In this document: in pieces, positions 6,474 to 58,260 of the stretch
Position numbering within the stretch: position 1 is the stretch's first letter
How the letters are laid out: each line of letters begins with the position of its first letter
NCBI GenBank assembly: GCA_963696295.1
Contig: CAVOJR010000001.1
Span: forward strand, 448,001-512,000
Length of the DNA: 64,000 nucleotides
Source of the DNA: an uncultured Chlamydiae bacterium
Lineage (GTDB): Bacteria > Chlamydiota > Chlamydiia > Chlamydiales > JAJFMB01
Direction of reading: 5' to 3'
The notes under the pieces: model-generated
Told to the model about the DNA's origin: nothing
Database searches by the model: none
What the model saw: only the letters and a program-made list of their open reading frames with translations
Made by a program: the position numbers and the translations under genes

Positions 6474-7265
6474 ATGAATTATATTATCCCCGTCCTACTA
6501 CTTTTCACTTCGATTGCTGCGGGCGAACTCGCCCTCTACCGCCCCGGCGGCTACACCCCGAAAAACAGCCTATCTTCCCATTTTATTGCCGGAGGAAAAG
6601 AATTCAGCGCTTTCGTGCAGAAGATGTCTGCCCATGTTAAGGAAGCCCCGGCAAAAGATCCCAACAAAAAAGCCGTGCTGTTGGTCCATGGCCTCAACTC
6701 CTCCCCGAAAGACTGGCATAACCTCTTTAAAGACCTGCAGGCCGAAGGCTATGAAGTGTATACCATCTATCTCTCCTACTGGAAGCCGGATGGATTTACA
6801 CAAAGCGTGCAAAAAATTCAGGATAAAGTCCTTGCCATTCTAAAAGTGCACCCCTCCGTCGATATTATCGGCCATTCCCTCGGCGGCCTGGCCTCCGTTC
6901 AAGCGGTCAACCAGCTCGGCATCCATCAAAAACAGATCACTCGTCTGATAACGATAAATTCTCCCTTAAACGGGACGACTGTCATGAATCGCTTTACCCG
7001 TCTTTTTATCCCGGATCATCTGATCGAGGTGTTGACCTACGATTGCGCGTTCACGAACCAGCTGCGGCAGCAGTCCCTGGAAACGGGAAAAGCGGGCGTG
7101 CGGTTTTTCCATACGGCGACAGAGAGCGACCATCTGGTCAGAGACCTCGACACCTGCTTCCTGCCCCAGTTTGAGGAAGGAGTAGTTATCACCGAAGAGG
7201 GTCACCTCAGCACGCTGAATTCCCCCAGCGTGCGAAGCAAAATCCTCGAATGGCTTAAGTCTTGA
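6474..7265 (+). CDS. Secreted alpha/beta hydrolase (lipase/esterase-like)
   Basis: Signal peptide; LLVHGL, GHSLGG nucleophile elbow, SPLNGT, C-terminal GH. Confidence 0.8.
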   Translation: MNYIIPVLLLFTSIAAGELALYRPGGYTPKNSLSSHFIAGGKEFSAFVQKMSAHVKEAPAKDPNKKAVLLVHGLNSSPKDWHNLFKDLQAEGYEVYTIYLSYWKPDGFTQSVQKIQDKVLAILKVHPSVDIIGHSLGGLASVQAVNQLGIHQKQITRLITINSPLNGTTVMNRFTRLFIPDHLIEVLTYDCAFTNQLRQQSLETGKAGVRFFHTATESDHLVRDLDTCFLPQFEEGVVITEEGHLSTLNSPSVRSKILEWLKS

Positions 7266-7545
7266 TATTTTCTCCGCCTCGGCACGCTGAATTCCCCCAG
7301 CGTGCGAAGCAAAATCCTCGAATGGCTCAAGTCTTGATATTTTCTCCGCCTCGGCACGCTGAATTCCCCCAGCGTGGGAAGCAAAATCCTCGAATGGCTT
7401 AAGTCTTGATATTTTCTCCACCTCGGCACGCTGAATTCCCCCAGCGTGCGAAGCAAAATCCTCGAATGGCTCAAGTCTTGATATTTTCTCCGCCTCGGCA
7501 CGCTGAATTCCCCCAGCGTGGGAAGCAAAATCCGAATAGTCTTGA
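7203..7545. repeat. Tandem array, 72-bp unit x ~4.7, copying the 3' end and stop of the hydrolase gene
   Basis: CACGCTGAATTCCCCCAGCGTG recurs at 7211, 7283, 7355, 7427, 7499; last unit degenerate. Confidence 0.97.
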
Positions 7546-8247
7546 CTACCACCTTTTTTTGGCATTTGTCCAGACGGCTTCCCTTTGGGTGCCTGAAATG
7601 AGAAAATAGGCAAAGCTATCCGTATTTAAATTCAAACCGAGATAGACATATTTTCCCTCATAAAAGGAATCCAAATCCTTCGCAATCCTCCAGAGAGTTC
7701 CATCGCTCAAAAGAAGATCTCTGTGATAAATAATGGCCCAATATTGCTCCATAACAGGCTTTCCTTGAGAATCCTTGACCGTTTGGCCATACTGGTCTTT
7801 CTTCTCTCGCGTGATCAACTGACGATCGACTTCAATATCCTGATAACTTTGCACAATCAAAGGATATTTGGGATATTCCACAAGCATAACCCTCACAAAT
7901 TGTTTCAGGTTCTGATTATATAACTTAAATTTATGCTCCCTTTTGAAGAAGTAGGGTTCCGTGCGAAGGTCGGTATAAACCAAATCGCCCAAATTCCATT
8001 TGCGGAATTTCGCCTTGTCTTCCGGATGCACTTTCCATCTTGAGCCATCATTTAAGACAGCCACATCGTCGCCGGCAAATTGCTCATGGCGGTCGCCGGC
8101 AAAGCTTTCAGTCCCATCCAAAACGCGCACCATAAAGCGGGGCGTGTTACCCAGCAAACGAAGCTCCGCCTTAACTTCAGGACTGACCTCCTGAACAGCA
8201 AACAGAGGGAAAGAAGCAACTAACAAACACAATAATAACTTTTTCAT
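7546..8247 (-). CDS. Secreted hypothetical protein (two L-x-DG-[ST]-x-W motifs)
   Basis: Signal peptide; paralog of 8257..8922. Confidence 0.75.
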   Translation of the reverse strand: MKKLLLCLLVASFPLFAVQEVSPEVKAELRLLGNTPRFMVRVLDGTESFAGDRHEQFAGDDVAVLNDGSRWKVHPEDKAKFRKWNLGDLVYTDLRTEPYFFKREHKFKLYNQNLKQFVRVMLVEYPKYPLIVQSYQDIEVDRQLITREKKDQYGQTVKDSQGKPVMEQYWAIIYHRDLLLSDGTLWRIAKDLDSFYEGKYVYLGLNLNTDSFAYFLISGTQREAVWTNAKKRW

Positions 8248-8256
8248 AAATTCTCC

Positions 8257-8922
8257 TTAAAATATCCTTGCCGCACGTGTCCAAACAGCTTCCCGTTCGC
8301 TTCCGGCAATAAGAAAATAAAATAAACCATCCGATTCACTATTCATTCCGACATAGACGAATTTTCCTTCAGCAAAGGCATCGTAAACTGATTTGATTCT
8401 CCAAACCGTTCCATCGCTCAAAAGAAGATCCCTATGGTAGATACATTCCCAATACTGCTCTAAAATGGGATCTCCCTTTGAATCCTTAAGCGGCTGTCCG
8501 TATTTATCTTTCGCCGGGCGTGTCTTTAACTCCCTGTCGACTTCCACATCTTGAAAGGCCTGGACAAACAGCGCCTGATCGGGATAGTTAACGAGCATAA
8601 CCCTCACAGAATCTTTTAGCGTGTGATTGTACAAATCAAATTTATGCTCCCTCTTAAACCAATAATGGGAAGTGCGCAATCTGACGTGCACTTCATCGCC
8701 AAAATTCCATTTGCGGAATTTCGCTTTGTCCCCCGGATGCACTTTCCAACGGGAATCATCATTTAAGACGGCCACAAAATCGCCGGCAAACTGATTATGG
8801 CGGTCCCCTTCAAAAGTTTCCACGCCATCTAAAGTGCGCAGCAAAAAATCGGGGACTGTGGCAGCGTGGGCTTGAAACGTCACAACTAGCAAAAGAAAAA
8901 AGGTAATTAATATTTTTTTCAT
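8257..8922 (-). CDS. Secreted hypothetical protein, tandem paralog of 7546..8247
   Basis: Signal peptide ending AHA; shared FAGD..VLND.SRWKVHP.DKAKFRKWN.GD and YHRDLLLSDGT.WRI. Confidence 0.75.
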   Translation of the reverse strand: MKKILITFFLLLVVTFQAHAATVPDFLLRTLDGVETFEGDRHNQFAGDFVAVLNDDSRWKVHPGDKAKFRKWNFGDEVHVRLRTSHYWFKREHKFDLYNHTLKDSVRVMLVNYPDQALFVQAFQDVEVDRELKTRPAKDKYGQPLKDSKGDPILEQYWECIYHRDLLLSDGTVWRIKSVYDAFAEGKFVYVGMNSESDGLFYFLIAGSEREAVWTRAARIF

Positions 8923-9030
8923 CTATCAAACCTTGGTTAAAATTCAAACGTGAGTCATCTTATTCAACGTATATTAAGAAAAAATAAAGAATTAATAATA
9001 AGTTATTAACAGTAAAAAGTCAATATTCCA

Positions 9031-56939: not shown

Positions 56940-56964
56940 AAACAGTCGAACAGTAGACGTGATG

Positions 56965-56993
56965 AGCCTCCCCTTCCGGGAGGCTTTTTTTTT
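56965..56993 (+). terminator. Rho-independent terminator
   Basis: AGCCTCCC-cttcc-GGGAGGCT followed by a T run. Confidence 0.85.
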
Positions 56994-57056
56994 CCCCTGT
57001 TGTAAAGAATTTCTTTTTTTATTATAAGAGCATCTTTGACATATGGAGGAAAGGAA

Positions 57057-58097
57057 ATGCGAGTAGGCGTAATCGGTCTGAATCATAAACTCGCGGACCT
57101 TTCTTTGAGGGAATCCCTCGCAAAAGCCTGTCAAGAGCGGTTTTCCCATGGATCTTATTGGCACGACGACCATACTTTTTTGCTCCTTTCCACTTGCAAC
57201 CGGACAGAAATATATTTCTCCTCTGACGATCTGGCTGGCACGCACTCCTTTCTGCTAGATCTTCTGAAACAGTTGATCCCTTGCGATTTCGACCAGAAAC
57301 TCTACTCCTACTTTAGCTATAATTGCTTTTTGCATTTGTGCCGGGTGGCAGCGGGTCTTGATAGCGCCATCATCGCAGAAACGGAAATCCAGGGGCAAGT
57401 GAAAGACGCTTATGAAAAGACATCTCGCAGAAAACGGCTGCCGAAAGAGATCCATTTTTTGTTTCAAAAAGCGCTGAAAGTAGGCAAGTTGATTCGCACA
57501 CAGTTTATTTTCGAGCGCGGAATGCCAGACATGGAACACGCCATTTTTGATATCAGCCTTCGCTACATTCAGCAGCCGCTGAAAAGCCAAATCCTGTTTG
57601 TCGGCGCCTCCGCCATTAATGGCAAGGTGATCCGCTACCTTAAAGCCAGGCACTGCGAACATTTAACCCTTTGCAACCGGACCCGGGATAAGGGGGAAAG
57701 AATGGCCGACCACCTCGATATCGCCTTTCTTCCCTGGGAAAACCTCGAAAAATGGCCCGAGTATGACTGGATTGTTTTAGGGACAAAAGCAAAGGAGCCT
57801 TTGATCACCTTGCTGCCGGGATTGAAAAGCAAAAAGCTCATCATGGATCTCTCAGTTCCGCGCAATGCCGACCCCATTTTGAGGCAGGACCCGAATATCG
57901 CCCTTTACGATATCGACCAGATCCATCAGCTTCTCGCCAAACGTAAAGGACAGCTTCACGACACCCTCGTTCTGGCAGAAAAAAGGGTGGCTCTGGAAAC
58001 ATACAAACAGATTCACCTCTTCAGAGAAAAGTGCAAGCCCCTCTCATTGCCGATTTTTCGTCAGCCCATGAGGGACGAAACCGTTCGAACGGATTAA
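57057..58097 (+). CDS. hemA: Glutamyl-tRNA reductase (short chlamydial type)
   Basis: GLNHK.A...RE, STCNRTEIY, GLDS...ETEIQGQVK, DLSVPRN. Confidence 0.93.
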   Translation: MRVGVIGLNHKLADLSLRESLAKACQERFSHGSYWHDDHTFLLLSTCNRTEIYFSSDDLAGTHSFLLDLLKQLIPCDFDQKLYSYFSYNCFLHLCRVAAGLDSAIIAETEIQGQVKDAYEKTSRRKRLPKEIHFLFQKALKVGKLIRTQFIFERGMPDMEHAIFDISLRYIQQPLKSQILFVGASAINGKVIRYLKARHCEHLTLCNRTRDKGERMADHLDIAFLPWENLEKWPEYDWIVLGTKAKEPLITLLPGLKSKKLIMDLSVPRNADPILRQDPNIALYDIDQIHQLLAKRKGQLHDTLVLAEKRVALETYKQIHLFREKCKPLSLPIFRQPMRDETVRTD

Positions 58098-58260
58098 AAA
58101 TCTGGAACCTCTTCAGAGAAAAAGCCATTGCCGATTTTTCGTCAGCCCATGAGGGACGAAACCGTTCGAACGGATTAAAAATCTGGAACCTCTTCAGAGA
58201 AAAAGCCATTGCCGATTTTTCGTCAGCCCATGTGGGACGAAACCGTTCGAACGGATTAAA
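58015..58260. repeat. Tandem array, 81-bp unit x ~3, derived from the hemA 3' end
   Basis: CATTGCCGATTTTTCGTCAGCCCATG at 58045, 58126, 58207. Confidence 0.97.

What the first reader, a model, noticed from the sequence alone, without database searches (positions are those of the whole stretch)
7203..58260. Recurrent 'gene-tail echo' arrays: three unrelated tandem repeats, each copying the stop-codon end of the upstream gene
Seen: arrays at 7203-7545 (72-bp unit), 42669-43100 (120 bp) and 58015-58260 (81 bp) have different unit sequences but one architecture. The unit is the last codons of the upstream gene plus its stop and a little downstream DNA. The gene stays intact, copies carry small internal deletions, and all three final unit lengths are multiples of 3. 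Three in 64 kb suggests a genome-wide process. Inference: either a mechanism acting at transcript or gene 3' ends (slippage at termination or collision sites, cDNA-templated insertion, or scars of an element integrating at gene ends), or a high tandem-duplication rate where only duplications that spare the ORF survive. I know of no named family for this.
Basis: partly seen in the sequence, partly recalled or inferred. Interest (0 to 1): 0.8.

Follow-up and report, generated by a model that had tools for sequence, protein, structure and literature searches.

The report
Tandem duplications surviving across stop codons
The repeated gene ends are real and occur at about 40 places in this bacterium and about 20 in a relative, but they are likely ordinary DNA-copying slips that survive where they spare both neighbouring genes, not a device that acts at gene ends.

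Summary
The three arrays are real. Each copies the last codons and stop of an intact gene, with deletions. The pattern is genome-wide: stop-centred echoes 43, start-centred 10 (mostly miscalls) of 2,578 genes; a same-family genome gives 24 versus 1 of 1,549. The stop codon is not a hot spot, though. Between convergent genes, arrays that span a stop and purely intergenic arrays are equally frequent per available position, and boundaries fit random placement. Copies differ from the gene as neutral DNA would (34% synonymous versus 30% expected). No reverse transcriptase was found, and the units occur nowhere else. 'Multiple of 3' is not a rule (21 of 46). Best reading: a lineage with frequent 30-200-bp slippage duplications, filtered by selection. 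New twist: 5 of 6 duplications that kept a copied start codon form mini-ORFs ending at the next start (1.8 expected), like mycobacterial MIRUs. Weak residual hints of a collision bias remain (head-on genes 33 of 52). The scan reported similar stop-spanning arrays earlier, in this genome and in clostridial, methanogen and giant-virus DNA.

The parts
6474..7265 (+). alpha/beta hydrolase gene, intact; source of array 1
   Evidence: ortholog in G002 ends at the same place with no echo
7183..7265 (+). gene-tail source segment of array 1 (83 nt ending in TGA)
   Evidence: alignment
7266..7481 (+). three 72-nt copies (gene tail with a 10-nt and a 1-nt deletion), differing at 1-3 positions
7482..7545 (+). 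last, 64-nt copy with 2- and 6-nt deletions in its 3' part; abuts the stop of the convergent gene
7546..8247 (-). convergent gene, 233 aa, no Pfam or NCBIfam match; its TAG abuts the last echo
40175..42724 (+). 842-849-aa gene without family match, intact; source of array 2
42570..42724 (+). gene-tail source segment of array 2 (155 nt)
42725..42964 (+). two 120-nt copies: about 14 nt of post-stop DNA plus gene tail with deletions of about 7, 19 and 24 nt; 7 differences between them
42965..43102 (+). last copy (126 nt, keeps the 24-nt piece, has an 18-nt 3' deletion) and the ancestral post-stop DNA
   Evidence: contig match
43100..43122 (-). terminator-like hairpin downstream of the convergent khpA-like gene, outside the repeated unit
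   Evidence: consensus scan, (1 found, 0.7 expected: weak)
43157..43411 (-). convergent KH-domain (KhpA) gene
57036..58097 (+). hemA (glutamyl-tRNA reductase), intact; source of array 3
57982..58097 (+). gene-tail source segment of array 3 (about 116 nt)
58098..58259 (+). two 81-nt copies with about four deletions in their 5' part; 1 difference
58299..59363 (+). murG, starting 39 nt after the last echo

Best explanation
These arrays are likely ordinary local tandem duplications of about 30-200 bp that arise at positions unrelated to stop codons and are then sorted by selection. Shown: the copies are non-coding, decay like neutral DNA, and are frequent in this genome and in a same-family genome. 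Inferred step 1: replication slippage or microhomology-mediated repair copies a short segment head to tail. Inferred step 2: inside a gene only in-frame copies survive; across a stop the gene stays whole and the copy is harmless; across a start the copy makes a competing mini-ORF and survives mainly if that mini-ORF hands the ribosome on to the real start, or is in frame. Inferred step 3: further slippage between the gene tail and the first copy adds copies. This refreshes their 3' part from the gene and passes on deletions in their 5' part, leaving the oldest copy at the far end. Why this lineage makes or keeps so many duplications is not known.
For: (a) Rate per 10 kb of available positions follows harmlessness, not stops (G000, G002): convergent stop-spanning 4.5-5.0 and 4.4-5.7; convergent purely intergenic 2.5-3.0 and 3.6-5.3 (difference n.s., p=0.11-0.85); co-oriented stop 2.3 and 1.8; start-only 0.16-0.53 and 0. 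(b) In convergent junctions the post-stop part of the unit fits random placement run through the same aligner (median 9.5 versus 10 nt, 12 loci, p=0.39). In G002 several units hold 60-500 nt of post-stop DNA. (c) Near echoes differ from the gene at 32 of 94 (G000) and 19 of 57 (G002) synonymous single changes, versus 30% expected for neutral change. (d) 54 of 55 arrays inside called genes have a period divisible by 3 (hand count), versus 21 of 46 stop-spanning ones. (e) 5 of 6 non-fusion duplications that kept a copied ATG end their last mini-ORF at -8, -4, -4, -4 or 0 nt spacing to the next start; 1.8 expected, p=0.009. In two more loci the copied start codon has changed, and one is an in-frame N-terminal repeat. 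(f) A neutral simulation of slippage plus deletion reproduces the deletion polarity (observed 0.05/0.23/0.32/0.40; simulated 0.04-0.07/0.20-0.25/0.28-0.35/0.40-0.44). (g) No RT found; units unique in the genome.
Against: Echoed genes are head-on to the fork in 33 of 52 single-stop loci (25.7 expected, p=0.03), including all three window genes. In G000, 20 of 42 loci lie in the terminus-proximal quarter (p=0.005), not so in G002 (p=0.46). In co-oriented junctions of G000 the unit ends closer to the stop than the null (median 5 versus 12-13 nt, 15 loci, p=0.001), not in G002 (6 loci). First-unit lengths divisible by 3 are mildly enriched in G000 (18 of 35, p=0.03). The coupling test is post hoc; two of its six loci were added from other scans or by eye, and the systematic subset alone is 3 of 4 (p=0.10). 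Part of the simulated polarity comes from requiring an intact stop end, since it appears after only 10 events. Convergent enrichment is also what a collision model predicts. mutS, mutL, recA, recJ, xseA, uvrD, mfd and rho were all found, so no missing repair gene explains the rate. No new duplication was observed directly.
Confidence: 0.72

Rival explanations
1. Mutation itself is biased to gene 3' ends: forks stall where they first meet head-on RNA polymerase, or where convergent transcription collides, then slip back and re-copy the segment. Selection acts on top of this bias.
For: Head-on 33 of 52 (p=0.03); convergent junctions enriched 4.6-fold and 6.4-fold (22 of 428 versus 20 of 1,724; 13 of 248 versus 9 of 1,054); terminus gradient in G000. 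Short post-stop parts in co-oriented G000 junctions.
Against: None of the four single-class head-on tests is significant alone. The terminus gradient and boundary pinning do not repeat in G002. Purely intergenic arrays are as frequent as stop-spanning ones between convergent genes.
Confidence: 0.14
2. The first echo is the scar of an insertion with long target duplication whose cargo was later deleted; slippage then multiplied the leftover gene end.
For: 19 genes in G000 and 7 in G002 have a non-coding copy of their end 0.8-12 kb downstream. The scar type is described in PMC2853133 (abstract and section 10 read; two H. influenzae cases overlap gene 3' ends). Some units in other loci hold middle parts I could not assign to either flank.
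Against: In G000 far copies are synonymous-biased (32 of 56) and near copies are not (32 of 94; Fisher p=0.007), so the two classes differ; G002 shows no such contrast (7 of 22 versus 19 of 57). The three window units are explained by gene plus flank, with no foreign filler.
Confidence: 0.07
3. The copies are kept for a function: spare gene ends swapped by recombination, or tunable spacers that insulate convergent transcripts or separate overlapping gene ends.
For: Several arrays separate convergent genes whose ends appear to have overlapped (remaining gap -9 to -83 nt). Mini-ORF chains keep coupling.
Against: Neutral substitution pattern; deletion lengths fall evenly on all three frames (59/51/50 of 160). 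The hydrolase and hemA orthologs in G002, and hemA in the other 18 loci printed, show no echo in the flank shown. About a fifth of all convergent junctions overlap by 9 nt or more anyway.
Confidence: 0.04
4. cDNA-templated insertion of transcript 3' ends, or scars of an element that integrates at gene ends.
For: Multiple deletions in a copy could look like template jumping.
Against: No RVT_1 match in G000 (97% complete), G001 or G002, with the control ringing in 3 of 14 genomes. No shared sequence among units and no other genomic copy. Many units cover both convergent gene ends, or 100-500 nt of flank.
Confidence: 0.02
5. Assembly artefact.
For: Tandem repeats are a known source of assembly error (general knowledge); arrays 1 and 3 were not bridged by independent data.
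Against: Copies carry distinct substitutions and deletions. A short-read contig matches the array 2 junction exactly. A separate genome shows the same class at other genes.
Confidence: 0.01

Closest known systems
Bacterial minisatellites / VNTR loci arising by local tandem duplication (general knowledge; E. ruminantium as the repeat-rich example, seen only as cited in PMC3287509, passages read)
   Same: Head-to-tail units of tens to about 200 bp, 2-16 copies, unique to each locus, in-frame inside genes and any frame outside.
   Different: Copy-number variation was not shown here. I recall that Collins et al. 2005 report repeats overlapping gene ends more often than starts, but the paper was not held, so that is recalled only.
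Tandem repeats of Borg elements (PMC9879509, passages read)
   Same: [quoted passage not shown]
   Different: Borg units are perfect and A-rich, on an extrachromosomal element. Here they are on a bacterial chromosome, degenerate and eroded by deletions.
Microhomology-mediated tandem duplications of S. pombe (PMC8639346, passages read)
   Same: 55-92-bp duplications with frame selection only inside genes.
   Different: Yeast and observed de novo. Here microhomology at junctions was seen only by eye at a few loci, not tested, and is blurred by erosion.
Mycobacterial interspersed repetitive units, MIRUs (PMC12548453 and PMC3184786, passages read)
   Same: The operon-internal subset has 53-122-bp units whose mini-ORFs overlap the next start at -4, -8 or 0 nt, the same -4 logic described for MIRUs.
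   Different: MIRUs are one homologous family of 40-50 copies thought to be mobile. These units are unrelated to each other and made from the local gene ends. The three window arrays contain no neighbouring start.
Insertion with long target duplication (PMC2853133, abstract and section 10 read)
   Same: A duplicated gene end of 45 bp or more with no dedicated element.
   Different: There the two copies flank cargo genes; here copies are adjacent, multiplied and not synonymous-biased.

Membership tests
Bacterial minisatellite / VNTR | Head-to-tail repeats of a unit longer than about 10 bp at one locus | tested here: met
Bacterial minisatellite / VNTR | Unit is locus-specific, derived from local sequence | tested here: met
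   blastn of the three units hits only their own loci; alignments
Bacterial minisatellite / VNTR | Copy number varies between strains or cells | not testable with these tools
   no same-genus genome among 40 relatives; public runs give only sparse contigs
Microhomology-mediated tandem duplication | 4-25 nt of identity at both ends of the duplicated segment | not tested
   only read by eye at a few loci; junctions are eroded
MIRU | One homologous dispersed family, tens of copies per genome | tested here: not met
   for the three window units; units are unrelated
MIRU | Internal ORF coupled to the adjacent start codon | tested here: inconclusive
   met in 5 of 6 start-containing loci elsewhere in the two genomes, not applicable to the three window arrays; translation not measured
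Insertion with long target duplication | Foreign cargo between two copies of the target | tested here: not met
   window units are fully explained by gene plus flank; earlier loss of cargo cannot be excluded
RT-driven system (retron, DGR, group II intron, retrosequence) | Reverse transcriptase in the genome | tested here: not met
   PF00078 not found in G000, G001, G002; other RT families not searched

The most novel reading that the evidence does not exclude
This family has an undescribed duplication mutator, despite intact mismatch repair and recombination genes. It fires where the fork meets RNA polymerase at gene 3' ends, and its survivors in operons are newborn MIRU-like ribosome relays made from the genes' own ends.
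Probability: 0.14. Interest if true: 0.65.

Novelty: new member of a known kind. Interest (0 to 1): 0.3.

Why it matters
As read here the arrays are harmless scars, but they map where a compact bacterial genome tolerates inserted DNA: most between convergent genes, less after a stop in co-oriented pairs, and almost never over a start unless translational coupling is kept. That last subset suggests a simple route by which MIRU-like coupled repeats could arise without transposition. If the collision bias were true, these loci would be a natural record of replication-transcription conflict. In practice such arrays cause false small-gene calls and would likely serve as typing markers.

Tried and rejected
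Multiple-of-3 rule: rejected (21 of 46). Idea that arrays end just before the next gene's own promoter: seen by eye, not supported when tested (5 of 20 with a 9/12 match versus 6.5 expected, p=0.85); the hemA-murG candidate scores only 8/12 and was not called. A missing repair gene as cause: mutS, mutL, recA, recJ, mfd, rho, xseA and uvrD were found in all five genomes searched; Ku was found in G000, G019 and G033 but not in G001 or G002, so it does not track the trait. RNase H, dnaQ, recG, ruv, recQ and priA were not searched as families. No RNA holder was listed, so transcript ends could not be mapped. One search gave no cover of array 1. The genome-contig scan with murG returned only distant, mostly Bacteroidota, loci and was not used. 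The first gene-calling script failed on an import. Plasmid contig: 0 of 67 genes with a tail echo, about 1 expected, so uninformative. Further out-of-family comparators could not be fetched, so the claim that the trait is family-limited rests on only 377 kb of G033 (0 arrays; 70-contig assembly) and 400 kb of G019 (2 arrays; its mfd is in pieces). Literature searches without a hit. Searches listed nothing that describes a genome-wide stop-versus-start test in bacteria. Collins et al. 2005 was not held. Most subscription papers are not searched, so absence from print is not shown.
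Full report
Observation. All three arrays are present and begin in the last codons of intact + strand genes: an alpha/beta hydrolase, an 842-849-aa protein without family match, and hemA. The source segments are 83, 155 and about 116 nt; the copies are shorter through internal deletions. Arrays 1 and 2 lie between convergent genes, array 3 between hemA and murG. Only array 2 clearly includes post-stop DNA (about 14 nt); the apparent spacers of arrays 1 and 3 align to the gene. 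Copies differ at 1-7 positions. A 258-nt contig of public run X1 matches 42873-43130 exactly; array 1 had no cover and array 3 was not bridged. The units have no other copy in the genome.

Organism and method. The genome has a 3.30-Mb and a 135-kb contig. It is likely an environmental chlamydia: this rests on earlier scan notes and my recollection that the best NCBIfam models are chlamydial; no call named it. No same-genus genome was among 40 relatives; two share its family. Genes were called with my own hexamer-based finder (3,077 on C1, 88% coding), so stops are more reliable than starts. GC skew puts the origin near 1.409 Mb and the terminus near 3.130 Mb.

Genome-wide test. TRF gave 135 array clusters with period 25 or more. 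Of 2,531 genes of 100 aa or more, 49 have the last 45 nt echoed downstream and 10 the first 45 nt echoed upstream. By junction (2,579 in all), 42 contain a stop echo, 5 a start-only echo and 54 a purely intergenic array. On inspection at least four of the 42 are something else (a dubious ORF, a dispersed element, a duplicated small gene, a probable coding repeat), four of the five start-only calls look like miscalls, and many 'intergenic' ones lie in genes my filter dropped; none were removed from the statistics. A symmetric 18-mer test gives 43 versus 10 of 2,578 genes. In 2.0 of 2.05 Mb of the same-family genome G002: 22 stop-containing junctions of 1,550, none start-only, and 24 versus 1 of 1,549 genes. 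Two other families showed no stop echo in 377 kb and 400 kb, weak negatives.

Is the stop a hot spot? Counting available positions per class, arrays per 10 kb are highest between convergent genes whether or not they span a stop (4.4-5.7 versus 2.5-5.3; four tests, p=0.11-0.85). This holds although the stop class was found with a more sensitive method. Rates fall after stops in co-oriented pairs (about 2), and to 0-0.5 over starts. In convergent junctions the post-stop length fits random placement (p=0.39). Arrays inside genes keep frame (54 of 55, hand count); stop-spanning ones do so in 21 of 46. Near echoes show a neutral share of synonymous change (34% and 33% versus 30%), whereas far copies flanking extra DNA in G000 are synonymous-biased (57%). 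So near echoes are neither spare working ends nor, in G000, the same class as the far copies. Deletions lie mostly in the 5' part of the first copy (8/37/51/64 of 160, a count inflated by loose alignments of long units). A neutral simulation gives the same profile, partly through ascertainment.

The start-containing subset. Random start-spanning duplications end their mini-ORF within -8 to +3 nt of the real start in 12% (loose junctions) to 28% (tight junctions) of cases, and fuse in frame in about 14%. Of six real non-fusion cases with an intact copied ATG, five are coupled. G000 2,266,082: 53-nt unit, ATGA chain. 2,858,176: the last two of three copies end TAA-ATG. 3,002,149: 61- and 70-nt units, last at -8. 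541,134: 56 nt, ATGA. G002 227,238: four 122-nt copies, ATGA chain. One (2,798,251) ends 18 nt early. P=0.009, post hoc; the systematic subset is 3 of 4, p=0.10. This is the arrangement described for MIRUs (PMC12548453, passages), but made from local gene ends. It offers a reason why start-spanning duplications are rare.

Results against this reading. Head-on genes 33 of 52 (p=0.03) and a terminus-side excess in G000 only. Units end nearer the stop than the null in co-oriented G000 junctions (p=0.001); selection against copying downstream signals could cause this, but my promoter test did not support that. Mild multiple-of-3 excess in G000 (p=0.03). These come from about a dozen tests and mostly fail to repeat in G002, so a collision-linked bias is kept as a minority reading. 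No RT was found. Eight repair, recombination and termination genes were found in all five genomes, and Ku does not track the trait, so the cause of the high rate is open.

Comparison with what is known. [quoted passage not shown] Strain variation, which defines a VNTR, could not be tested. They are not MIRUs (no homologous family) and not long-target insertions (no cargo; PMC2853133, abstract and section 10). Papers seen: passages of PMC3287509, PMC9879509, PMC12548453, PMC8639346, PMC5040723, PMC3184786; no supplements were read. Collins et al. 2005 is recalled only. Earlier scan notes report the same picture in other genomes and for one array of this genome; they are unchecked and are not counted as support. 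My searches found no genome-wide stop-versus-start test in bacteria, within a library that lacks most subscription papers.

Verdict. Observation confirmed, interpretation partly supported. New members of a known kind, with one modest new feature (coupling-preserving mini-ORF chains). Interest 0.3.

Noticed in passing
window 39756-39999 (G000 C1 487756-487999): Pieces of two different dispersed repeat families sit together just upstream of tRNA-Arg; the two queries give 34 and 60 blastn hits genome-wide.
   Followed up: no
window 40066-40140: tRNA-Arg(TCT) directly upstream of the 842-849-aa gene that has no Pfam or NCBIfam match.
   Followed up: no
window 55977-56167: 15-bp in-frame repeat (about 11 copies) in ORF 55806-56939, giving a cysteine-rich segment that hits Keratin_B2 models.
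   Followed up: no
window 10185-11282: Sel1-repeat protein with a 108-bp in-frame repeat.
   Followed up: no
window 58040-58097: HemA here has a C-terminal tail about 10 residues longer than most of the 18 other homologues printed; this is the part that the echo copies best.
   Followed up: partly
G000 C1, 19 genes; G002, 7 genes (lists): Non-coding copies of gene ends 0.8-12 kb downstream, synonymous-biased in G000 (32 of 56) but not in G002 (7 of 22); 6 and 1 far copies of gene starts.
   Followed up: partly
G000 C1 889007-891182, 2814603-2817575, 1723184-1724911; G002 C1 1278169-1281211: Arrays that repeat a stretch shared by two convergent gene ends, so that genes which appear to have overlapped now each own a copy.
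   Followed up: partly
G000 C1 248728-249147: A 60-bp array between two co-oriented genes reads as a 139-aa repeat ORF opened by a 1-nt insertion; the copied start codon of the next gene reads ATC in the copies.
   Followed up: no
G000 C1 2473708-2473814, 2522137-2522239, 2576346-2576449, 2634131-2634250, 602611-602680: A third small dispersed hairpin repeat, itself partly caught in tandem arrays between convergent genes.
   Followed up: no
G002 C1 886718-887958: rho is split over two frames: a frameshift or an assembly error.
   Followed up: no
G000 C1 811043-811582: Ku homologue present in G000 but not found in the two same-family genomes.
   Followed up: no
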